DNA of 64,000 nt from Escherichia phage LHE287, in sequence record PP761450.1. One strand, given 5' to 3'. A program made the translations under genes and the position numbers. Shown one piece after another: positions 4,719 to 57,255 of the stretch. Under the pieces are notes generated by a model. The model saw only the letters and a program-made list of their open reading frames with translations. It did no database searches and had not been told where the DNA came from. The stretch's first letter is position 1, and each line of letters starts with the position of its first letter.

Positions 4719-5513
4719 TTAACTGAAACTCTTGTATGCTGCTGCGAGCTTCTTGTCGTACTGGTTCTTGGCATACGCCGGACCATTATAGCGCCGTGCA
4801 AATTCAGACCAGTTCTTGTCCTTCAGAGCCTGCCAGAGCTTGGCGTCAGCCTTGATGAACTTCACGAATGCCATCAAATGAGCACGTTCTCCTGTCAGGA
4901 AGTCGTTGAACATCTCCTTGGCGTTGGCATATCCACAGACCTGGCAGTTGAATCCCATGATCTGGAAGAGACCGTAAGAGGCGCTCTCGTACGCACAATC
5001 CTCATCGATGTTGATGGCCGCATGAAGTCGATCCAACTCCGCGTCGCCTCCCGTGTACCCGCCTGCGGAAGGACTGACCAACGTCGGGTACATATGTCCC
5101 ATGGCATTCGCCCGAGCCTGTCCGAACTTCGCCATCAGCTTCTTATACATGATGTGGCGCTCAAATAATGTCTTGATCTTACCTGACTTGGTGAAGCCCG
5201 TACCGCGCGACTCAACCTGATTCACCGCCTTGACAGAGGCAAGGTCAACACCCAGATCATTAGCAGCATCAATCAGGTCTGACTCAGTTAGATGATCCTG
5301 ATGGGCGTCTCCGGCGTTGCGAATAGCATAGGAGGTCTTTGGACCTACGATACCATCAATGACAAGCCCCGCACCCGCCTGAACAGTCTTGACGGCGTTC
5401 TCTGTTGCCTTGCCAAAGATACCATCAGCGACGAGGGTGAAGCCGATTTTGTTGAGGCTATTCTGAAGTGCCTTCACTTCAGTGCCACGGTTGCCAAGTT
5501 TTAGAATGGCCAT
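4719..5513 (-). CDS. endolysin: peptidoglycan-binding repeats plus muramidase-like C-terminal domain
   Basis: start refined to ATG 5513 (GGAGG SD; track start 5531 is TTG); two PG-binding-like repeats then YGLFQIMGFN...NWSEFARRYNGP region. Confidence 0.7.
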   Translation of the reverse strand: MAILKLGNRGTEVKALQNSLNKIGFTLVADGIFGKATENAVKTVQAGAGLVIDGIVGPKTSYAIRNAGDAHQDHLTESDLIDAANDLGVDLASVKAVNQVESRGTGFTKSGKIKTLFERHIMYKKLMAKFGQARANAMGHMYPTLVSPSAGGYTGGDAELDRLHAAINIDEDCAYESASYGLFQIMGFNCQVCGYANAKEMFNDFLTGERAHLMAFVKFIKADAKLWQALKDKNWSEFARRYNGPAYAKNQYDKKLAAAYKSFS

Positions 5514-5661
5514 AAGAAAATACCTCCACAATGAATGCAGAGGTATTTAAAGTGAAAGTGAACTACTCGAGGAGCTGGGGGAAGACTTTGTTCGAATGTG
5601 TCGGCAACCCAGAGAGTGCCAAAGAGGATTGAATGACTGCGATCTCCTCCCAAGACCTGAT

Positions 5662-6258: not shown

Positions 6259-6288
6259 ATAATAGTGCATCATTATTGAAGAGTAAAG
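6259..6288 (-). promoter_or_regulatory. early-type promoter (-35 CTTTAC, 18 bp, -10 TATTAT) upstream of 5697..6185
   Basis: minus strand reads CTTTACtcttcaataatgatgcacTATTAT; same architecture as repeated cassettes. Confidence 0.5.
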
Positions 6289-12578: not shown

Positions 12579-13217
12579 TTACGGCGTCAGATTCACAACC
12601 GGAATGTGGGATCGAATACCTGCGATGATGTCCTTCAGCCGAGGATTCCATCCATCCACCAAACGGGGGAGAGCGATAGCGCCAGGCTGGACCAAAATGA
12701 TGTCGCTGCCTGTGATATTGTGCTGAGGGAACTGGGCAAGGTACTGCTCCATGGTGACACCCTCATCAATCAGAACTGCACCGACGTCAGACGATGCGTA
12801 GGTTGCACCCAGGCCGTCAACACCCCATGCCAAGATACCCCAGTCAGGGATGTTAGCTTCAGATGTGATGGTGAATCCAAACACGGTGTTCAGCGAAGTA
12901 AAGGAGTAGACATCGTGGGTGATGTCATACACCAGATACCCCTTGGCCAGCATATCGGCAAAGATCGCGTCCGTATCGCCAGCAGCCGGAGTCGGTACAG
13001 TAAACAACAGCTCGCCATCAGGAGGAGCAGGATACGTGCCGAGGGCATAGAGGCACCATGCGTCAATACACTTCTTGATAAATGCCTCTGGCGCGACATA
13101 ATCAGCAAGGCGAACCGTACCTGAGTACTCTGATACGATAATGCCTTCCTTCGCACCCTGTAGAGCAATGAAGACCAAGATATGTTCATATCCGGCCTGA
13201 GATGGAGTGATGTTCAT
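12579..13217 (-). CDS. hypothetical protein (212 aa)
   Basis: ATG 13217 overlaps upstream stop (TAATG); AAGAGGA SD. Confidence 0.55.
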   Translation of the reverse strand: MNITPSQAGYEHILVFIALQGAKEGIIVSEYSGTVRLADYVAPEAFIKKCIDAWCLYALGTYPAPPDGELLFTVPTPAAGDTDAIFADMLAKGYLVYDITHDVYSFTSLNTVFGFTITSEANIPDWGILAWGVDGLGATYASSDVGAVLIDEGVTMEQYLAQFPQHNITGSDIILVQPGAIALPRLVDGWNPRLKDIIAGIRSHIPVVNLTP

Positions 13218-13831
13218 TATCTTGTCCTCTTCAGTTTCTCTATTGTGTGCTTGTTCATGGCGATCACCTGAGGATCTACCTCGGAGATGGTCCGGCCTTC
13301 GAAAGACACACATTTCTGAAGATATTTAGCTTTCTTCACGACGTCGGCAGCATAAGCGTTCGATGCGGGATTACGGGCGAAGCCAGCATTGTAAGAGGAG
13401 AGGGATTTGCGGATATTCTGATTGTGATAGGTCAGCCAGAACTGCATCTCATCGAGGGCGGCTTGCGCGGCATATTCTTGGTCGGTCAGCAACTTTATGG
13501 CGACATTGGCATAACACTTGCGATTCTTACAACCTTCGCGATCACCAACTGTCTTCACCTTGTTCTGAAAGGCTCCCATGTTGGCCGCCTTGAGGCCGTA
13601 TCGCATTGACACTACATCTTCGCCAGCGCGGCTCTCTCGCCAAGATATGGCGGCCAGCGTGTAGCCAAGATCTTGTGTCTTGCCTACGTGATAGGCGGTT
13701 GCCATCGTATTAAGTTGTTGCTCGGAGAAATTATAAACACATTGACTTGTATTTTGGGAAGCGTGCACATTCCCGCTGGCAATGGTAAAGGTCACGGACA
13801 AGGCCATGGCCTTCAACGTTGTCATCGTCAT
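13217..13831 (-). CDS. secreted protein, possibly lytic-transglycosylase-like
   Basis: N-terminal signal-peptide-like segment MTMTTLKAMALSVTFTIASGNVHAS; ISWRESRAG...MGAFQ loosely resembles SLT ES...GxMQ pattern; AAGGAA SD. Confidence 0.45.
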   Translation of the reverse strand: MTMTTLKAMALSVTFTIASGNVHASQNTSQCVYNFSEQQLNTMATAYHVGKTQDLGYTLAAISWRESRAGEDVVSMRYGLKAANMGAFQNKVKTVGDREGCKNRKCYANVAIKLLTDQEYAAQAALDEMQFWLTYHNQNIRKSLSSYNAGFARNPASNAYAADVVKKAKYLQKCVSFEGRTISEVDPQVIAMNKHTIEKLKRTR

Positions 13832-14213: not shown

Positions 14214-14523
14214 ACGTTTGTCTCAGATGTTCAGTAAAGGATTTACCCAGCTTGCGGAATAGTTTAATACGCCCGACGACTTTGACGTAAACATCTCCGT
14301 GGCAGGGGCGCGGCTTACACCAGCACCCCAATACCTTCCCGTCAAGATCAAGGAGTTCATCCTCAGTGATATCCCCTTCAATCAGGCGCACATACAGGTC
14401 GTCCTCAAACAGTTCGATACAGACGCCTCGTCCATGGTCTTTGACCTCAAACGGGTTCCCCCATTTACCAGGCCGACCAATGTAGACGTCATATGGCTCC
14501 TTCTTGAAGTGGACGACTTTCAT
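14194..14523 (-). CDS. small conserved protein with YIGRP..WGNPF and CWCKPRPCHGDV motifs (DUF4326-like)
   Basis: 109 aa; motif pattern recalled from a widespread uncharacterised family; start ATG overlaps stop of upstream small ORF. Confidence 0.5.
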   Translation of the reverse strand: MKVVHFKKEPYDVYIGRPGKWGNPFEVKDHGRGVCIELFEDDLYVRLIEGDITEDELLDLDGKVLGCWCKPRPCHGDVYVKVVGRIKLFRKLGKSFTEHLRQTYVRKQR

Positions 14524-14684
14524 TTCAGGATTTGACCTGCAAGTAGATAACAGAACCAGACAGAGAACCCGAGATACCCCAGTGATTTCAGGTAGTTTTT
14601 CCTTTCGACTTCACGAGAAAATGCAACGATGTCAATGATGCATGCAAAGATCAGTATTGCGAGTTTAATTTGTTCGTAGTTCAT
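14520..14684 (-). CDS. small hydrophobic membrane protein (54 aa), not in ORF track
   Basis: own translation MNYEQIKLAILIFACIIDIVAFSREVERKNYLKSLGYLGFSVWFCYLLAGQILK; AAGGA SD 7 nt upstream; start 2 nt after gp46 stop, stop overlaps next start. Confidence 0.4.
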   Translation of the reverse strand: MNYEQIKLAILIFACIIDIVAFSREVERKNYLKSLGYLGFSVWFCYLLAGQILK

Positions 14685-22718: not shown

Positions 22719-23381
22719 TTACACCTCCACCGCGTGAGACTTCAGGAGTTCATCAATCTCTTTCTGTCCCATGTATGAGAACGGGGTGCGCTGGTAGAAC
22801 GCCCAGAGTACTAACTGGACAACAGCACGGGAACGGGTTTCGGCCGTCATCACCAGGCCACTGAAATGAGGAGACTCAGCTGTCCATTGTATCTCTTCGC
22901 CCAGGTCTTGATTACAGGTCACCGAGATGCGGAACTTGTTGCACAGATTGTCGACTTCTTTGTACGCATCGGTAGACACACGAAGTTGTTCCGCATGCGC
23001 CCACGGAGTTGTGACGATTCTTTCACCCATCACTTTATCAGAGATAAACCAATCAATACATTCGGTAAACTCACTAAAATGGTCGATACGATAAATGCAG
23101 TCTCCCCCTTCCATAGAACGCATGGCATGATAGCGAGCGTCGATTTCGTTGTTGTGCATCGCGTTGAAGTCGATGAACACGCGACGCGCCAGCACAACAT
23201 CTTCTGGTTGAAGTGCCAAGAAATCGTTCAGGCGGCTATAATGGAGGATATTGGAACCGTCGTGGCCACGTGTGCAATATGCGTAATAGCTACCGATACG
23301 GGCGTGGGCAATATAAGACAACGGGGCGAAGAATAATCCGTCAGGATCAGGACCGACGATAATAGAATAAAGTTTTTCCAT
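22719..23381 (-). CDS. hypothetical protein (220 aa)
   Basis: ATG 23381 in ...GACTATATCATG leader-type context. Confidence 0.5.
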   Translation of the reverse strand: MEKLYSIIVGPDPDGLFFAPLSYIAHARIGSYYAYCTRGHDGSNILHYSRLNDFLALQPEDVVLARRVFIDFNAMHNNEIDARYHAMRSMEGGDCIYRIDHFSEFTECIDWFISDKVMGERIVTTPWAHAEQLRVSTDAYKEVDNLCNKFRISVTCNQDLGEEIQWTAESPHFSGLVMTAETRSRAVVQLVLWAFYQRTPFSYMGQKEIDELLKSHAVEV

Positions 23382-23437
23382 GATATAGTCACTCAAATGA
23401 AAGGGCAGCTTTATGATAAGCCGCCCGAGGTTATTGA

Positions 23438-24292
23438 TTATTGGAAATCGCCAACATACATGTTCAGCTTGTCGTCCCAGTTCAGAACGACACGGATCGT
23501 TCCGGTATCTTCTGGGAAGGTCAGTCTGTCACACATGGCGCGATTAACATAAGTCCCGCTCTGGTTGACGTTGTAGTCCTTGCCTTGCATGATACCAAAA
23601 CGCTTGAAGTCGCGAGTGACCATCATGTTCAGAGTTGTCCAAGGGATTGCATCGCGCAGGGCTTTGCACAGGATGATCTTACCATCCGACCTGAACGACA
23701 CAAACAGCTCGTTGGCGATACGACGGCGAGTAGGCGGTTCAAGTTCACGCAGGGAAATGAATTGTGAATTCTTTACCTTTTCTGCCAGCGTCTGTACTTC
23801 TGCTGGATCCGGCTTGAACGACTCCACTGAAGAGTCAGACTTCATCACAACGTCACCCTTGCGCTTCTCAACCAATTGCTCCACAGCCTTTTGACTGTAT
23901 TTGGACTTAGGAACAACCGCTGGCTTGATGACAGGGCTTGCATCTGGTTTCGCCTTTGGGGTACTCCGAGCCGCACGCAGCTTTTCCTGGGCTTCCAGAA
24001 TGCGCTCTTGACGAGAAAGCGGAGCCTTTGGGGTGATCTTCGTACTGAAGTCAGAAACGCCGACCCAGTCACCCTGGTCATTACGCTTGGCGACCAGAGT
24101 CAGTTTGTGGATGATACCCTGAAGTTTGCTCTCACGTAAGTTGTCGGCATACCAGAACTTCGCGCCCATCTCGAACTTCTCGGCGAAGATCACGCGAGCG
24201 TCTTCGTGTACCAACATAACTTTGGCTGCGTTGGGGGCAAAAGCCTTATTCTTTTCGATAATCGCCGCAGCGATTGTTTTGGTCAGGAGCAT
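23438..24292 (-). CDS. hypothetical protein (284 aa)
   Basis: ATG 24292 with GAAGGAA SD. Confidence 0.5.
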   Translation of the reverse strand: MLLTKTIAAAIIEKNKAFAPNAAKVMLVHEDARVIFAEKFEMGAKFWYADNLRESKLQGIIHKLTLVAKRNDQGDWVGVSDFSTKITPKAPLSRQERILEAQEKLRAARSTPKAKPDASPVIKPAVVPKSKYSQKAVEQLVEKRKGDVVMKSDSSVESFKPDPAEVQTLAEKVKNSQFISLRELEPPTRRRIANELFVSFRSDGKIILCKALRDAIPWTTLNMMVTRDFKRFGIMQGKDYNVNQSGTYVNRAMCDRLTFPEDTGTIRVVLNWDDKLNMYVGDFQ

Positions 24293-24332
24293 CACAGTGT
24301 ATTCCTTCAGTTCACAATGTAGGGCTAAAATT

Positions 24333-24662
24333 TTAACCCGAAACTTTATTTTGAAATCCGACAAAGTCCTGGGCAATCCCCCGGCAATACATCAGGTCTT
24401 TCTTCGTTTGTGGACTGTTATCAGCCGCAGTCAGCATCATGGGAAGATCCAGCGCATTCTCTATCTGATCAACACTGAACAGATCAAGGCGCTTCAGCTC
24501 TCCCTCGAAGTCAGACAGTAGGATAGATGTGTCTTTGTCATCTGGGTGGAACTGCTGATACGTCTCCATCCATGCCACACATGTGTTCAGTTTGGACGGT
24601 GGTGCGGCGTTTACACACCCGGCTATCAGTACCAACAAGAGCAGGATTTTACATTTCATCAC
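24333..24662 (-). CDS. putative lipoprotein (109 aa)
   Basis: signal peptide with lipobox MKCKILLLLVLIAGC; start overlaps upstream gene end. Confidence 0.55.
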   Translation of the reverse strand: MMKCKILLLLVLIAGCVNAAPPSKLNTCVAWMETYQQFHPDDKDTSILLSDFEGELKRLDLFSVDQIENALDLPMMLTAADNSPQTKKDLMYCRGIAQDFVGFQNKVSG

Positions 24663-25345
24663 TCGTTCTCCTTCATCATATTGTCACAGTCAACACGAGT
24701 CTGCTGGAGTTCGCGCGACATGCGAGGATCATCAAGGTTCACGCTCAGATTCGTGGCCAGGTCTTTCAGACCGTTCTGAACCCTGTCTTCAAAGTAATAA
24801 TCGTTCTCAACCAGCCAGGCTCTGAGACCAAGAGCGCGGGTGCGCCATTCCTTCTTCAGGATGCGATCAGAGGTCTGCGTGGCGCTGTATTCGAATACTT
24901 TGACGCACTGGTTGCCATCGTTGATGAGGTTCAGGTGACGGCGGCCTATCTGCACACCCTTCTGTAATGCCGGAGAAGGGAGCGAACGGCACTGTCTTAC
25001 GGTCATTCGGCCTTGGGTGCCCATACGCCCAGTCATGATCAAATCGCCAGCCTCCATGCCTCCACGGTTAAATTCGTCGTCATTGAGGTAGCCTTTGAGG
25101 TTATAGGCTCCCTGTTTGTAACGGTTGAACTCAATTCCGGCATTGACGACAGCGGTGGAGACGTTGCCTGTGTTCCAGAGTTCAGCGAAGTTCTCTATGG
25201 AACCAGACTTGTCGATGGCAACCGCCTGGGAGAACCCAGCACAATAGGAAAGGTCGGACCACAGTTTATCACCTGTGGAGTTCAGCTTGGCAGCGGCGGG
25301 TAATGCCAGACCAGCCAGCACAACCCCGAGGATTAAACGTTTCAT
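24659..25345 (-). CDS. secreted or membrane-anchored protein (228 aa)
   Basis: ATG 25345 with AAGGAGAA SD; N-terminal MKRLILGVVLAGLALPAAA. Confidence 0.5.
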   Translation of the reverse strand: MKRLILGVVLAGLALPAAAKLNSTGDKLWSDLSYCAGFSQAVAIDKSGSIENFAELWNTGNVSTAVVNAGIEFNRYKQGAYNLKGYLNDDEFNRGGMEAGDLIMTGRMGTQGRMTVRQCRSLPSPALQKGVQIGRRHLNLINDGNQCVKVFEYSATQTSDRILKKEWRTRALGLRAWLVENDYYFEDRVQNGLKDLATNLSVNLDDPRMSRELQQTRVDCDNMMKENE

Positions 25346-25424
25346 GGCGATTCTCCTTATTTCATTGGATGAAATGATAGGCGGCTCACCATGATGAGTA
25401 AAGGGATTCAATAAACTATCGTAT

Positions 25425-25874
25425 TCAGAAACGGGTATCGCTGACCGTTCTGTATCGCACACCCTGAAACTGTTTAGCGAGTTTAACAAATTCCATCGCT
25501 GGCAAATCAACTTTGTAGACCTTCATGCGCTGTTTGCCGTCCATGTTCAACGCAGCGACAAATCGGTGAGAACCGTCAACAACGTAATTGTCAGAAGATA
25601 CCCAAACTCGACCCATAGGTTTCTTATTTCTGATCTGCTTCATAATCTTCCAGACCTTCATTTTATTGATTTCGTTCTGGGTAAGACGAAGCGTTTTGAT
25701 GGGCACTTGCGCAGCATCTATGGACACGCCGTTGTCTTCAAGATATTTGTGAAAATCTTCTTGTTTGTCGGCATCGATTTGCGGCATAGAAGAACGAGAA
25801 AGCCCGAGGTTCCCAACAGGAATCCTCAGGCCGTTAATGATGTTCAACCAGTCAATAAAAGATGTAAGGAACAT
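25425..25874 (-). CDS. ParB/sulfiredoxin-like nuclease-domain protein
   Basis: 149 aa; DGSHRF motif resembling ParB-type DGxHR; GAGGTG SD. Confidence 0.4.
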   Translation of the reverse strand: MFLTSFIDWLNIINGLRIPVGNLGLSRSSMPQIDADKQEDFHKYLEDNGVSIDAAQVPIKTLRLTQNEINKMKVWKIMKQIRNKKPMGRVWVSSDNYVVDGSHRFVAALNMDGKQRMKVYKVDLPAMEFVKLAKQFQGVRYRTVSDTRF

Positions 25875-25906
25875 GACACACCTCGGGATATAGGGTTATC
25901 CCTTAG

Positions 25907-26107
25907 TTAGCGCATCCATCGATCCTTTCTCTCTTTCTCCTTGCGTTCGCGACGTTTCTGGTCGGATCGGAATAACCAATAGAAGAAGTTCCCACCCAAG
26001 ATGAAAACCACCGCGATTATTACTAGGACACCCTTCACAATTTCCCAAACCAATTCTTTATCCAAATTATACCTCTTCTTCTTCTTCTTCTTCAGGTCCA
26101 CCGTCAA
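25907..26107 (-). CDS. doubtful small membrane ORF (poly-Lys then TM helix)
   Basis: no ATG start (TTG/GTG only), no SD; overlaps upstream gene across (AAG)6 repeat. Confidence 0.25.
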   Translation of the reverse strand: MTVDLKKKKKKRYNLDKELVWEIVKGVLVIIAVVFILGGNFFYWLFRSDQKRRERKEKERKDRWMR

Positions 26108-26363
26108 TCAGGATACGAGCGGCGTCGAAAGTTTCCCCGCCCGTGTTCAGCAGCTTGGTCAGATCGTCAAGATATCGGACCGTGCCAAGATCAGATGACC
26201 GCGATATGAACTCCAGCATACCATACAACGCTGTTTGGAATCGGCTGTTATCGATATCGTTCTTTATTACCATCAGGCGCAAGATGTTCTCTGACTGAGT
26301 ATGGCCAACACACGCCTTGTCTCTGATCATCTCCTTGATAGAACTTCTCTCTGATGGTGTCAT
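26067..26363 (-). CDS. hypothetical protein (98 aa) with poly-Glu C-terminus
   Basis: ends ...GGPEEEEEEEV encoded by (GAA)6 repeat. Confidence 0.45.
   Translation of the reverse strand: MTPSERSSIKEMIRDKACVGHTQSENILRLMVIKNDIDNSRFQTALYGMLEFISRSSDLGTVRYLDDLTKLLNTGGETFDAARILIDGGPEEEEEEEV
26075..26092. repeat. (CTT)6 trinucleotide repeat, (AAG)6/(GAA)6 on coding strand
   Basis: reads as EEEEEE in one ORF and KKKKKK in the overlapping frame. Confidence 0.85.
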
Positions 26364-26734
26364 AACGTACCCCCGACAGAGATCAAGAACTCTTCTTGCA
26401 TGGTCTTGACCGGGTGGTGGTTGCGGGTTTCGAACATGAAGCCCCAGCCACCGTCGGCGACGTTGCCAAAGGTCTTGACGCCAAAGGACTTCGTCCCGTT
26501 GGAGCAGGAATAGATGTCCAGGACGTATGGGCTACCCTGATTGTCGATCCCACGATTCACGTCGTCTGATACGCAGCGCTCAATCATCTTCCCGTTCTTA
26601 TACAGAACGAGGTCTTGGCCATACGCCTTGAAAGCATAAACACCGTTGGTAGACACTCCGGTGATGACAGGAGGGGCGGAAACAGCAGCAAAGGAAGCGC
26701 CCAGCAGGGCAACAGCGAGGATTAACTTTTTCAT
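26360..26734 (-). CDS. secreted protein (124 aa)
   Basis: ATG 26734; signal peptide MKKLILAVALLGASFAAVSA. Confidence 0.55.
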   Translation of the reverse strand: MKKLILAVALLGASFAAVSAPPVITGVSTNGVYAFKAYGQDLVLYKNGKMIERCVSDDVNRGIDNQGSPYVLDIYSCSNGTKSFGVKTFGNVADGGWGFMFETRNHHPVKTMQEEFLISVGGTL

Positions 26735-26749
26735 GATATAGTCTCTTGG

Positions 26750-26778
26750 TTTCAAATAGACGGGGTAATCATACCCCG
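26750..26778 (-). terminator. rho-independent terminator after 26794..27033
   Basis: CGGGGTA-ATCA-TACCCCG then TCTATTTG on minus strand. Confidence 0.65.
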
Positions 26779-26793
26779 CCCAAAGTTATAGAA

Positions 26794-27033
26794 TTAACTG
26801 ATGTGCTTCAGAAGAGCGAAGAGGATCGCGGCCTTGGCCTTTACCTTTCCTACGATGCCTGTTTCGACATCAACTTCTTCAGCAACCCACTCTTTTCCCT
26901 TCTTGCTGATGATAACGTCACGACGCTGTGCGTAGACTTCTTTGGTCGCATACACACGGCGGAACCCTTTAGCGCGGAGCAATCCCCAATTGCGATCAAT
27001 TTCTACTGAGGTTTCTACCATTTTGTTCTTCAT
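26794..27033 (-). CDS. hypothetical small basic protein (79 aa)
   Basis: own promoter-terminator cassette (copy 1 of 57-bp repeat). Confidence 0.5.
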   Translation of the reverse strand: MKNKMVETSVEIDRNWGLLRAKGFRRVYATKEVYAQRRDVIISKKGKEWVAEEVDVETGIVGKVKAKAAILFALLKHIS

Positions 27034-27084
27034 GATATAATCTTACCTTTCAACCCGGTGAACCCATCGTTCGCCAGTTATTGA

Positions 27085-27114
27085 ATAATACGCATTTACC
27101 TTATAGAAGTAAAC
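27085..27114 (-). promoter_or_regulatory. early-type promoter in 57-bp repeat copy 1 (-35 GTTTAC, -10 TATTAT)
   Basis: minus strand GTTTACttctataaggtaaatgcgTATTAT upstream of 26794..27033. Confidence 0.55.
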
Positions 27115-27118
27115 CCCT

Positions 27119-27149
27119 AAAAGTAAAAATCCCCAACAAACGTTGGGGA
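27119..27149 (-). terminator. rho-independent terminator (repeat copy 1)
   Basis: CCCCAAC-AAAC-GTTGGGG then ATTTTTAC on minus strand. Confidence 0.7.
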
Positions 27150-27166
27150 TTTAATAAAAGTTATGC

Positions 27167-27391: not shown

Positions 27392-27440
27392 AACATATAC
27401 CTTCTTTCAATGAACGGGAACGCCCCGATCTATGAATTCA

Positions 27441-27470
27441 ATAATACGCATTTACCTTATAGAAGTAAAC
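27441..27470 (-). promoter_or_regulatory. early-type promoter in 57-bp repeat copy 2 (-35 GTTTAC, -10 TATTAT)
   Basis: identical to copy 1; upstream of 27167..27391. Confidence 0.55.
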
Positions 27471-27474
27471 CCCT

Positions 27475-27505
27475 AAAAGTAAAAATCCCCAACGTTTGTT
27501 GGGGA
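27475..27505 (-). terminator. rho-independent terminator after ACP-like gene (repeat copy 2)
   Basis: CCCCAAC-GTTT-GTTGGGG then ATTTTTAC on minus strand. Confidence 0.7.
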
Positions 27506-27511
27506 CTTCTG

Positions 27512-44915: not shown

Positions 44916-45719
44916 TCATGGATTAGAATCAATCGCCTTCCCACCAGATAGTGGAACCAGCTGTTGGAACTTGAAGGTCACTGTTGTCACCAGCTGAGGT
45001 ACAGCCGCGTCTACGTCCACCAGTACGTTGTCCAAAGCAGTCGGGCGGGCTTCCTCCAGCACGAGAGTGAGGCCAATCGGTCGGTTGAGGTTATCCAGCA
45101 ATTCAATGGTAATGTCCTTGCTGACAGGCAAATCCTTGCCGACGTTGCTGGTAATCCATTGGTGGATCTGTAACCATGATTTCCAGTCCTCGTCTATAAC
45201 GAAAGTAAATACGACGGGATCATAGGTTAAACGCTCTGAAGGTATAGAAACCAACACGTCACCAGGAGACGGACCATCGATGCCTTCGGAGTACACCCCT
45301 GGTATACTGAAGTCGTGGATGTTACGGGTTAGGAGTACAAGGTCTCCGATAGTCAGACGCCACTTATCGGACGCCGCGAAATTAGGGTTTTCGTTCTTGA
45401 ATTGTACGTTGGACATAATAGCACCTTTGCTGTGGAGATATTTTGTGACCCTGATGCGCGGGATCAGTAGATTGTTGTTGGCATGCTCGATGCTCTTGTT
45501 TACGAGCTGTCGCATCTTTGTCACGCCAATAATTTCTGTTTCCGAACTCTGGAACCCAGAAGTGCGCACTGTACCTGTGACGTTGTCGGCCAGCGTTCCC
45601 ACTTGTAACAAGGGTATGCTGGACATCATCGTGCAAGAGTTCCAGCCCTTCCAGAAGCTCGTACCTTTAGGTTGCTTTGATGAGAACATGAGCACCCTCA
45701 AGCCATACTGGAAGACCAC
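44916..45719 (-). CDS. hypothetical protein (267 aa)
   Basis: GTG start 45719 with strong AGGAGAGGAA SD; internal ATG 45417 alternative. Confidence 0.5.
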   Translation of the reverse strand: MVFQYGLRVLMFSSKQPKGTSFWKGWNSCTMMSSIPLLQVGTLADNVTGTVRTSGFQSSETEIIGVTKMRQLVNKSIEHANNNLLIPRIRVTKYLHSKGAIMSNVQFKNENPNFAASDKWRLTIGDLVLLTRNIHDFSIPGVYSEGIDGPSPGDVLVSIPSERLTYDPVVFTFVIDEDWKSWLQIHQWITSNVGKDLPVSKDITIELLDNLNRPIGLTLVLEEARPTALDNVLVDVDAAVPQLVTTVTFKFQQLVPLSGGKAIDSNP

Positions 45720-46095
45720 AATTCCTCTCCTGCGGCATGGCGATGAAGGGAAGATTCCATACCTATCAGCAAGTATTTATTACTCTCAGAACAACAGCAT
45801 CATTATCACCTTTAATCCATCATTCTACGCCAAGCTGAAGCAACAAATGGTTGGACGACTGGGTACAACATCAGATATAATCGTGACGTTCAAGATCATG
45901 AATGACTCAGATAAACCAGTACGAATCGCAACTCAGGGTGTGTTCGTTAACAACGAAGCGGTTGGAAATGGGATGAGTATCTTTGAAGTTAACCCAGGGG
46001 GAACGATCTTGATCAGACTGAGTAATGTGGGTGTGAACTCCCTGCTGTTGGATGGCATCGAACCAGTGGGAGTTCTTCCGGCGCGGGAGCACTGA
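45688..46095 (+). CDS. hypothetical protein (about 135 aa), plus strand
   Basis: C-terminal half of track ORF 45280..46095 looks protein-like and ends abutting next minus-strand stop; start uncertain. Confidence 0.35.
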   Translation: MSTLKPYWKTTIPLLRHGDEGKIPYLSASIYYSQNNSIIITFNPSFYAKLKQQMVGRLGTTSDIIVTFKIMNDSDKPVRIATQGVFVNNEAVGNGMSIFEVNPGGTILIRLSNVGVNSLLLDGIEPVGVLPAREH

Positions 46096-57226: not shown

Positions 57227-57255
57227 ATTATACGTGAGTTATTGAAGAAGTAAAG
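57227..57255 (-). promoter_or_regulatory. early-type promoter, cassette copy B (-35 CTTTAC, 17 bp, -10 TATAAT)
   Basis: minus strand CTTTACttcttcaataactcacgTATAAT followed by conserved leader to ATG 57178. Confidence 0.6.

What the first reader, a model, noticed from the sequence alone, without database searches (positions are those of the whole stretch)
24333..26755. Cluster of secreted, lipoprotein and membrane proteins
Consecutive ORFs encode a lipobox lipoprotein (LIAGC), a 228-aa protein with a signal sequence whose end overlaps the lipoprotein start, a 124-aa signal-peptide protein, and a possible poly-Lys membrane ORF. The overlapping periplasmic-protein/lipoprotein pair resembles i-spanin/o-spanin architecture, but the endolysin is 20 kb away, so superinfection exclusion or envelope remodelling are equally plausible.
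Basis: inference. Interest (0 to 1): 0.4.

Follow-up and report, generated by a model that had tools for sequence, protein, structure and literature searches.

The report
Exported phage protein pair, mislabelled spanin
The cluster is real, but the pair that databases call a spanin (a protein bridge that bursts the bacterial outer membrane) looks like two secreted periplasmic proteins made early in infection, so how these phages break the outer membrane remains open.

Summary
The window comes from an Ackermannviridae (Aglimvirinae) E. coli phage, 97-98% identical to RPN242 and AV101. On the minus strand lie a 108-aa lipobox protein (A, 24333-24659), a 228-aa signal-sequence protein (B, 24659-25345) whose stop overlaps A's start, a 124-aa signal-peptide protein (F) and a 52-aa one-helix membrane protein (D). 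D's "poly-Lys" is only the out-of-frame reading of the neighbouring gene's poly-Glu tail.

B/A is the pair annotated "i-spanin/o-spanin" in phage Marshall and "Rz-like spanin" in RefSeq and PHROGs. That label fails comparative tests:
- A's lipobox cysteine occurs only in a shallow clade (6 of 36 protein clusters). All other orthologues carry plain cleavable signals.
- B has a short h-region with an invariant A-x-A site in every homologue, no heptad pattern and four invariant cysteines.
- A folds as a compact helical bundle with no structural relatives.

The field's own spanin census lists the sister phages as spanin-less. A conserved T4-type early promoter sits directly upstream of B.

Best reading: an early-made periplasmic pair acting on the envelope, possibly in superinfection exclusion. 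Its function is unproven. Interest is modest.

The parts
24333..24659 (-). Gene A: 108-aa exported protein. In this phage it has a lipobox (LIAG|C15, Val +2) followed by a residual SPase-I site (VNA|AP). The mature domain is a compact helical bundle of about 85 aa with two invariant Cys (C27, C92).
   Evidence: lipobox, RBS. (alignment A2: Cys15 not conserved; C27 and C92 invariant). (AF2 pLDDT 86, about 96 over residues 21-100, five helices). (no fold relatives except the Erwinia phage phiEa2809 orthologue).
24659..25345 (-). Gene B: 228-aa exported protein. Its Sec signal has a 12-13 residue h-region, Pro at -4 and an invariant A-x-A|K site. It has four invariant Cys. Its stop overlaps A's start by one base (TGATG).
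   Evidence: The family has only 10 representatives in 1.8 billion proteins. The AF2 model is unreliable (pLDDT 37).
25374..25402 (-). Sigma-70 / T4-early-type promoter (TTTACT-17 nt-TATCAT) about 30 nt upstream of B.
   Evidence: The motif class occurs 5 times in the window against 0.03 expected, always on the minus strand and in intergenic DNA. Its hexamers are conserved upstream of B in 19 of 21 related loci while the spacer diverges.
23438..24292 (-). 284-aa cytoplasmic-looking gene (phrog_3828, function unknown) that follows A with no terminator. Probably co-transcribed with B-A.
   Evidence: The PHROG alignment starts at the Met at 24292.
23403..23426 (-). Terminator-like hairpin plus T-run that would end the B-A-284aa transcription unit.
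   Evidence: 9-bp stem, 6 GC pairs.
25425..25874 (-). Gene C: 149-aa protein with no signal, weak ParB-like similarity and a DGSHR motif. It is always found directly upstream of B-A and is more conserved than either.
   Evidence: phrog_2859; ParB-like E=0.0015. (C-B-A order kept in 21 of 21 IMG/VR loci and in two distant metagenomic relatives).
25907..26065 (-). Gene D: 52-aa single-pass membrane protein with a cationic C-terminal tail. The poly-Lys extension up to 26107 is an artefact.
   Evidence: Present in only some relatives.
26067..26363 (-). Gene E: 98-aa acidic protein with a poly-Glu tail and no export signal.
26360..26734 (-). Gene F: 124-aa secreted protein (signal ...AVSA|PP, two Cys, probably beta-rich). 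Present in about half of the relatives.
   Evidence: Signal conserved (AVSA|PP, or AAQA|DR in Klebsiella-type phages).

Best explanation
B and A are a translationally coupled pair of Sec-exported periplasmic proteins specific to Ackermannviridae. They are not a membrane-spanning spanin.

Proposed mechanism:
1. Host RNA polymerase transcribes B-A, and probably the next gene, from a T4-type early promoter directly upstream of B.
2. Both proteins cross the inner membrane.
3. B's signal is cut at A-x-A, releasing a soluble protein of about 209 aa that is probably disulfide-bonded.
4. A is a small helical bundle that is soluble in most phages of the family. In the shallow clade to which this window belongs it has acquired a lipobox and is probably tethered to the outer membrane.
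5. The two most likely act together in the periplasm from early in infection. They may condition or protect the envelope, for example by excluding superinfecting phage or blocking a periplasmic host or phage activity.

Shown: the sequence features, their conservation pattern, the fold class of A and the promoter motif. Inferred: cleavage, disulfides, early timing, complex formation and the envelope or exclusion role.

F and D are further exported or membrane proteins of the same early region. They are dispensable across the family and need not belong to the same machine.
For: Lipid anchor of A:
- The lipobox Cys is present in only 6 of 36 cluster representatives, all at least 95% identical to the window; a 93% relative has Ser instead.
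- It is present in 3 of 19 IMG/VR loci.
- It is absent in Serratia MAM1-type phages and in two distant metagenomic relatives, which have AQA|A, VLA|T and ARA|D signals.

N-terminus of B:
- A17 and A19 are invariant, with Pro16.
- Distant homologues have AWS|E, ASA|A and ANA|G.
- The uncharged N-terminal run is 16 residues, against 23 in lambda Rz.

Periplasmic character:
- B has four invariant Cys and A has two.
- A is a confident compact helical bundle.
- B has no heptad pattern (0 of 209 residues against 71 of 127 in Rz). A is 5% Pro against 24% in Rz1.

Linkage and expression:
- The stop/start overlap and the C-B-A order are kept across the whole family, down to about 30% identity.
- The early-type promoter is conserved upstream of B.

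Literature: Kongari et al. 2018 list Maynard, Vi01, SFP10, CBA120, PhaxI, AG3 and RC-2014 as spanin-less. Marshall is a singleton with the longest periplasmic length in their set, 300 residues.
Against: - No signal-peptide or lipoprotein predictor could be run, so cleavage of B is inferred from textbook rules.
- In this window A does have a good lipobox, so in this lineage a membrane-anchored role cannot be dismissed.
- The B structure prediction failed (pLDDT 37), so its fold and any enzymatic activity are unknown.
- Early transcription rests on a promoter motif only; no transcriptome was found.
- No homology links A or B to any known exclusion or envelope protein.
- The specific function is therefore a guess: about 0.8 for the topology claim, about 0.3 for the exclusion or envelope role.
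Confidence: 0.5

Rival explanations
1. B/A is a genuine two-component spanin, at least in this lineage. B stays anchored in the inner membrane by an uncleaved signal-anchor. A is an outer-membrane lipoprotein. The complex spans the periplasm and fuses the membranes after the murein is degraded.
For: - Gene order and overlap fit the 'separated' spanin architecture, and A has a canonical lipobox with no Asp at +2.
- It is annotated this way in Marshall, RefSeq and PHROG 3843.
- No other canonical spanin or u-spanin candidate was found in the whole Maynard genome.
- Early transcription does not exclude a spanin, because spanins are harmless until the wall is degraded (established knowledge of lambda and T4 lysis).
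Against: - The lipid anchor is missing in roughly 75-90% of orthologues, although the mature protein is well conserved.
- B carries an invariant SPase-I site and a short h-region.
- There is no coiled-coil signal, and A is a globular bundle held on a tether of about 8 residues.
- The same laboratory's census calls the sister phages spanin-less.
- MAM1-type phages keep only the N-terminal half of B.
Confidence: 0.12
2. The pair is a periplasmic lysis-timing device analogous to the T4 RI antiholin. Secreted proteins would sense superinfection or bind the holin's periplasmic face to delay lysis.
For: - A resembles RI in size, secretion, helical content and paired Cys (the RI properties come from established knowledge).
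- These phages carry rIIA, rIIB and an rI.-1-like gene.
- The promoter is of the early type.
Against: - No structural match to RI or to any PDB chain.
- The only annotated holin candidate (14520-14684, 54 aa) has no sizeable periplasmic domain to bind.
- No sequence similarity to any known family.
Confidence: 0.1
3. The pair is a non-fusogenic outer-membrane or envelope weakening system that substitutes for spanins. For example, B could be a periplasmic enzyme acting on OM-murein tethers or on lipid, with A as its partner or inhibitor.
For: - Canonical spanins are absent from the family.
- The pair belongs to the family's core genome and is strictly conserved.
- B is large, Cys-rich and highly conserved, as an enzyme might be.
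Against: - No catalytic motif or domain hit of any kind.
- The early promoter fits a lysis effector poorly.
- In MAM1-type phages B is cut down to 126 aa.
Confidence: 0.1
4. There is no joint function. A, B, F and D are unrelated small accessory genes that happen to sit together in an early-gene region rich in exported proteins.
For: - F and D are missing in many relatives.
- Two cytoplasmic-looking genes, C and E, are interspersed.
Against: B and A never separate, and they keep their stop/start overlap across the whole family, including relatives at about 30% identity. The enrichment estimate is about 0.01.
Confidence: 0.1

Closest known systems
Lambda Rz/Rz1 two-component spanin (and the 'separated' class of Kongari et al. 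2018)
   Same: An upstream gene with an N-terminal hydrophobic segment is followed, with overlap, by a small gene that carries a lipobox in this phage. Both products face the periplasm and contain Cys.
   Different: - A's lipobox is not conserved in the family.
- B has a cleavable signal (16 uncharged residues, A-x-A) instead of a 23-residue anchor.
- B has no coiled-coil pattern, and A is a folded 85-aa helical bundle rather than a short Pro-rich chain.
- hhalign probability is 0.3% for both comparisons.
- The pair is not next to the holin or the endolysin.
T4 superinfection-exclusion proteins Sp and Imm, and the T5 Llp lipoprotein
   Same: Small phage-encoded envelope proteins made early from host-type promoters. 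Llp is an outer-membrane lipoprotein, as A probably is in this clade.
   Different: No sequence or fold similarity was detected. Sp and Imm are inner-membrane proteins, whereas B and most A orthologues are predicted to be soluble. No exclusion phenotype is known for B/A.
T4 RI antiholin
   Same: A small secreted, mainly helical, Cys-containing periplasmic protein in a large T4-like myovirus that also carries rII genes.
   Different: No structural hit was found. RI acts alone on the large periplasmic domain of holin T. Here there is a second, 209-aa partner, and the candidate holin is tiny.
phiKT gp28 'disruptin' (spanin-less outer-membrane disruption)
   Same: It belongs to a phage group listed as spanin-less, so some alternative OM-disruption route must exist.
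   Different: gp28 is a short cationic amphipathic peptide. A and B are folded, exported, near-neutral proteins. Only D (52 aa, cationic tail) is even loosely reminiscent, and it is not conserved across the family.

Membership tests
Two-component spanin (i-spanin + o-spanin) | The o-spanin has a type-II (lipoprotein) signal with a lipobox Cys and an OM-sorting residue at +2 | tested here: met
   The window protein has LIAG|C15 with Val at +2. No lipoprotein predictor was available.
Two-component spanin (i-spanin + o-spanin) | The lipid anchor is conserved among orthologues, as expected if anchoring is essential to function | tested here: not met
   Lipobox present in 6 of 36 clusters (49 of 203 member sequences), in 3 of 19 IMG/VR loci and in 0 of 3 distant relatives.
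Two-component spanin (i-spanin + o-spanin) | The i-spanin is a type-II inner-membrane protein with an uncleaved N-terminal transmembrane domain | tested here: not met
   The h-region is 12-13 residues and the uncharged run is 16, against 23 in Rz. Pro at -4 and Ala at -3 and -1 are invariant, and distant homologues have equivalent sites. This is a heuristic test; SignalP was not available.
Two-component spanin (i-spanin + o-spanin) | The o-spanin gene is embedded in, overlaps, or directly follows the i-spanin gene | tested here: met
   TGATG, a one-base overlap, conserved across the family.
Two-component spanin (i-spanin + o-spanin) | Typical periplasmic domains: coiled-coil i-spanin and short Pro-rich o-spanin (typical, not strictly defining) | tested here: not met
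   Heptad-like residues: 0 of 209 in B against 71 of 127 in Rz. A is 5% Pro and a confident helical bundle.
Two-component spanin (i-spanin + o-spanin) | Outer-membrane disruption after murein degradation (complementation of Rz/Rz1 mutants) | not testable with these tools
   Needs genetics and microscopy.
Unimolecular spanin (T1 gp11 type) | N-terminal lipobox plus a C-terminal transmembrane domain in one protein | tested here: not met
   No C-terminal hydrophobic segment in A or in the two other lipoprotein candidates of the genome.
T4 RI-type antiholin | Small secreted helical periplasmic protein structurally related to RI, paired with a holin that has a large periplasmic domain | tested here: inconclusive
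Phage superinfection-exclusion / early envelope proteins (functional class) | Early expression and envelope location | tested here: met
   Conserved sigma-70 / T4-early-type promoter upstream of B and export signals on both proteins. Timing is inferred from the motif only.
Phage superinfection-exclusion / early envelope proteins (functional class) | Exclusion of incoming phage when the genes are expressed alone | not testable with these tools
   Needs plating or efficiency-of-plating assays.
Periplasmic lysozyme inhibitors (Ivy, MliC/PliC, PliG) | Match to the family profiles or fold | tested here: not met
   No Pfam, NCBIfam or PDB sequence hits for A, B or F. A is all-helical.

The most novel reading that the evidence does not exclude
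B/A could be the missing outer-membrane-disruption device of the 'spanin-less' Ackermannviridae. It would be a soluble periplasmic two-protein system that breaches or detaches the outer membrane without bridging the two membranes. The lipobox in this clade would then be a recent step towards anchoring.
Probability: 0.08. Interest if true: 0.75.

Novelty: new member of a known kind. Interest (0 to 1): 0.3.

Why it matters
Ackermannviridae (Vi01, CBA120, LIMEstone and the Kuttervirus and Agtrevirus phages) are widely used in therapy and biocontrol. Many of their genome records carry 'Rz-like spanin' or 'i-spanin' on these two genes. If the label is wrong, as the comparative evidence suggests, three things follow:
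- An annotation error is propagating through RefSeq, PHROGs and pharokka-type pipelines.
- The family really is spanin-less, so how it opens the outer membrane is still an open question.
- A strictly conserved, early-expressed periplasmic protein pair of unknown function becomes a defined target for simple genetic tests.

The result is useful housekeeping and a sharpened question. It is not a discovery of a new mechanism.

Tried and rejected
Dead ends:
- The AlphaFold2 model of B was unusable (pLDDT 37), so no fold search was made for it.
- The afdb50 fold library was not available.
- Pfam, NCBIfam, PADLOC and PDB sequence searches gave nothing for A, B, E or F.
- The exhaustive HMMER search with the B profile found only 10 representatives, all phage-like.
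- IMG/VR and JGI metagenome scans for the distant B homologues found nothing. Their contigs were recovered by exact look-up instead.
- Literature searches for Ackermannviridae transcriptomes or a disruptin in this family found nothing relevant.

Ideas rejected:
- An embedded Rz1-like ORF inside B: the all-frame lipobox scan found none.
- A better spanin pair elsewhere in the genome: the other lipoproteins, Maynard_19 and the DUF7424 protein, have no TM-bearing neighbour and no C-terminal TM segment.
- The T4 late promoter TATAAATA near the cluster: only 2 copies in the window, neither near it.
- Homology to lambda Rz or Rz1: hhalign probability 0.3%.

The third homologous-protein search was not used.
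Full report
**Identity of the window.** The region 23400-27100 is 97-98% identical to Escherichia phages vB_EcoM-RPN242 and AV101. It is 93% identical to Salmonella phages Marshall and Maynard, and 275 phage records match it. AV101 is classified as Ackermannviridae, Aglimvirinae. All genes of the finding lie on the minus strand.

**Check of the observation.** ORF listing and translation give six genes.
- A, 24333-24659, 108 aa: MKCKILLLLVLIAG|CVNAAPP...
- B, 24659-25345, 228 aa: MKRLILGVVLAGLALPAAA|KLNS...
- C, 25425-25874, 149 aa, no signal.
- D, 25907-26065, 52 aa, one transmembrane helix and an Arg/Lys-rich tail.
- E, 26067-26363, 98 aa, ending in EEEEEEV.
- F, 26360-26734, 124 aa: MKKLILAVALLGASFAAVSA|PP...

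B's TGA stop and A's ATG share one base. The poly-Lys stretch is upstream of D's real TTG start. It is E's GAA/GAG run read out of frame, and one orthologue has ATG at the short start. The endolysin (PG_binding_1 + Muramidase) is at 4719-5531, about 19 kb away. A candidate holin, annotated as such in Maynard, corresponds to 14520-14684. Four of the six N-terminally hydrophobic proteins found in the 64-kb window lie in these six consecutive genes.

**What the databases say.**
- Marshall annotates B and A as i-spanin and o-spanin. The GenBank record of Maynard, from the same laboratory, calls A a 'conserved hypothetical lipoprotein'; its RefSeq copy calls A an 'Rz-like spanin' and B hypothetical.
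- A hits phrog_3843 'Rz-like spanin'. B hits only PHROGs of unknown function.
- Many RefSeq records carry 'Rz-like spanin' on the A orthologue.
- A comparative paper lists both genes in the Vi01-like core genome.
- In the reference census of spanins (Kongari et al. 2018, PMC6139136), Marshall is a singleton family with the longest periplasmic length of all, 300 residues. That figure matches mature B plus mature A.
- The same census lists Maynard, Vi01, SFP10, SJ2, SJ3, CBA120, PhaxI, ECML-4, AG3 and Dickeya RC-2014 as spanin-less.

**Test of the o-spanin feature.** An o-spanin must be an outer-membrane lipoprotein.
- Among 36 cluster representatives of A with intact N-termini, only 6 have the lipobox, and all are at least 95% identical to the window. 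A 93% relative has Ser in place of the Cys. The rest have ordinary signal peptides ending A-x-A just before a conserved (A/S/T/V/E)P...LN.C.AW.
- By member counts this is 49 of 203 sequences.
- In IMG/VR, 3 of 19 loci have the Cys.
- Serratia MAM1-type phages have AQA|A.
- Two distant metagenomic relatives have VLA|T and ARA|D.
- In the phage collection, A occurs in 277 records. Of these, 219 fall in the 60-80% identity band that corresponds to the lipobox-less types, and 19 Dickeya phages match only from residue 18.
- The mature domain is well conserved, with two invariant Cys.

The lipid anchor is therefore a recent, clade-limited feature and not a property of the family.

**Test of the i-spanin feature.** An i-spanin needs an uncleaved N-terminal transmembrane anchor.
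- B's hydrophobic core is 12-13 residues. It is ended by an invariant Pro, with invariant Ala at -3 and -1.
- All 30 close homologues and the distant ones (AWS|E, ASA|A, ANA|G) show the same signal-peptidase-I pattern.
- The uncharged N-terminal run is 16 residues, against 23 in lambda Rz, whose sequence was fetched for comparison.
- B has four invariant Cys and 8.6% Gly. It has no heptad-like stretch (0 of 209 residues, against 71 of 127 for Rz).
- A is 5% Pro, against 24% for mature Rz1.
- Profile comparisons with Rz and Rz1 give 0.3% probability.

**Structures.**
- A is predicted with high confidence (mean pLDDT 86, about 96 over residues 21-100) as a compact five-helix bundle.
- BFVD returns only the orthologue of Erwinia phage phiEa2809.
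- B could not be modelled (pLDDT 37).
- The B family is tiny: 10 representatives at 50% identity among 1.8 billion proteins.

**Context and expression.**
- The order C-B-A, with the B/A stop-start overlap, is kept in all 21 IMG/VR loci and in both distant contigs. F and D come and go.
- In MAM1-type phages B is only 126 aa, the N-terminal half.
- A sigma-70-type promoter, TTTACT-17-TATCAT, lies at 25402-25374, just upstream of B.
- The motif TTTACT-N16-18-TATNAT occurs five times in the window, all on the coding strand and in intergenic DNA, against 0.03 expected.
- Two of those copies sit in a 73-nt repeat that combines a hairpin with the promoter.
- Upstream of B the two hexamers are conserved in 19 of 21 loci while the spacer has diverged.
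- TTTAC in the -35 region is the hallmark of T4 early promoters (established knowledge).
- No terminator separates A from the next gene (23438-24292). A hairpin with a T-run follows at 23426-23403.
- The T4 late motif TATAAATA is absent near the cluster.

**Is there another spanin?** An all-frame lipobox scan of the whole Maynard genome found only two other credible lipoproteins. Neither has a TM-bearing neighbour or a C-terminal TM segment. By canonical criteria the family is therefore spanin-less, in agreement with Kongari et al.

**Interpretation.** The best-supported reading is a pair of Sec-exported, probably disulfide-bonded periplasmic proteins. They are translationally coupled and made early from their own promoter. 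In this clade the small partner has secondarily gained a lipid anchor. The function is unproven. By analogy with early envelope proteins of T4 and T5, I favour action on the envelope early in infection, such as superinfection exclusion or protection. I put about 0.3 on that specific role and about 0.8 on the topology claim.

The rivals are:
- a true spanin in this lineage (0.12);
- an RI-like lysis-timing device (0.1);
- a non-fusogenic envelope-weakening system (0.1);
- no joint function (0.1).

**Verdict.** The spanin resemblance is superficial and the database label is probably a propagated misannotation. Interest is modest at 0.3. The work corrects an annotation and sharpens the open question of how these phages disrupt the outer membrane, but it reveals no new mechanism.

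Noticed in passing
window 27080-27152 and 27436-27508: A 73-nt direct repeat (92% identical). On the minus strand it combines a GC-rich hairpin with a T-run and a TTTACT-17-TATTAT promoter. The motif class TTTACT-N16-18-TATNAT occurs 5 times in the window (also at 6259-6287, 25374-25402 and 57227-57254) against 0.03 expected, which looks like the phage's early promoter class.
   Followed up: partly
window 13217-13831 (-), with 12579-13217 (-) and 14520-14684 (-): A 204-aa protein with a signal peptide (…GNVHA|SQ) and a weak SLT lytic-transglycosylase match (just below Pfam's cut-off). It lies next to a DUF7270 protein and about 0.7 kb from the 54-aa two-TM protein annotated as holin in Maynard. 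This could be a second, secreted murein hydrolase separate from the muramidase endolysin at 4719-5531.
   Followed up: partly
window 45445-46095 (+): A second lipobox protein (LFTS|C, 216 aa, DUF7424, phrog_3832) sits among structural genes on the opposite strand. It has no TM-bearing neighbour and no C-terminal TM segment, so it is not a spanin candidate.
   Followed up: partly
window 25425-25874 (-): Gene C (149 aa, DGSHR motif, weak ParB-like hit) matches the middle of the 740-position profile phrog_2859. It is more conserved than B or A (68-98% identity where B falls to about 30%) and always lies directly upstream of them. Its function, and any link to B/A, are unknown.
   Followed up: partly
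PMC6139136 (Kongari et al. 2018) versus GenBank KF669653 / KF669654: The census counts Marshall as having a two-component spanin but lists Maynard as spanin-less. Maynard's B and A genes are near-identical to Marshall's, including the lipobox. RefSeq later spread 'Rz-like spanin' to lipobox-less orthologues such as LIMEstone1, RC-2014, SFP10 and Det7.
   Followed up: yes
L025 3624-4004 and 4628-4921 (Serratia MAM1-type phage): B is reduced to a 126-aa form (the N-terminal half only) and still overlaps A. About 0.6 kb downstream there is an unrelated small ORF with a lipobox-like FLAS|C signal.
   Followed up: no
window 25316-25346 versus 26705-26735: The DNA encoding the signal peptides of B and F is 77% identical over 31 nt (MKRLILGVVL / MKKLILAVAL). 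This could be convergence or an old duplication of the export signal.
   Followed up: no
window 22719-23396 (-); L029 3890-4396: Gene content around the cluster varies between close relatives. Of the 225-aa ORF at 22719-23396, Marshall (L007) shows only a short match. AV101 has an extra 168-aa gene between F and the 79-aa gene.
   Followed up: no
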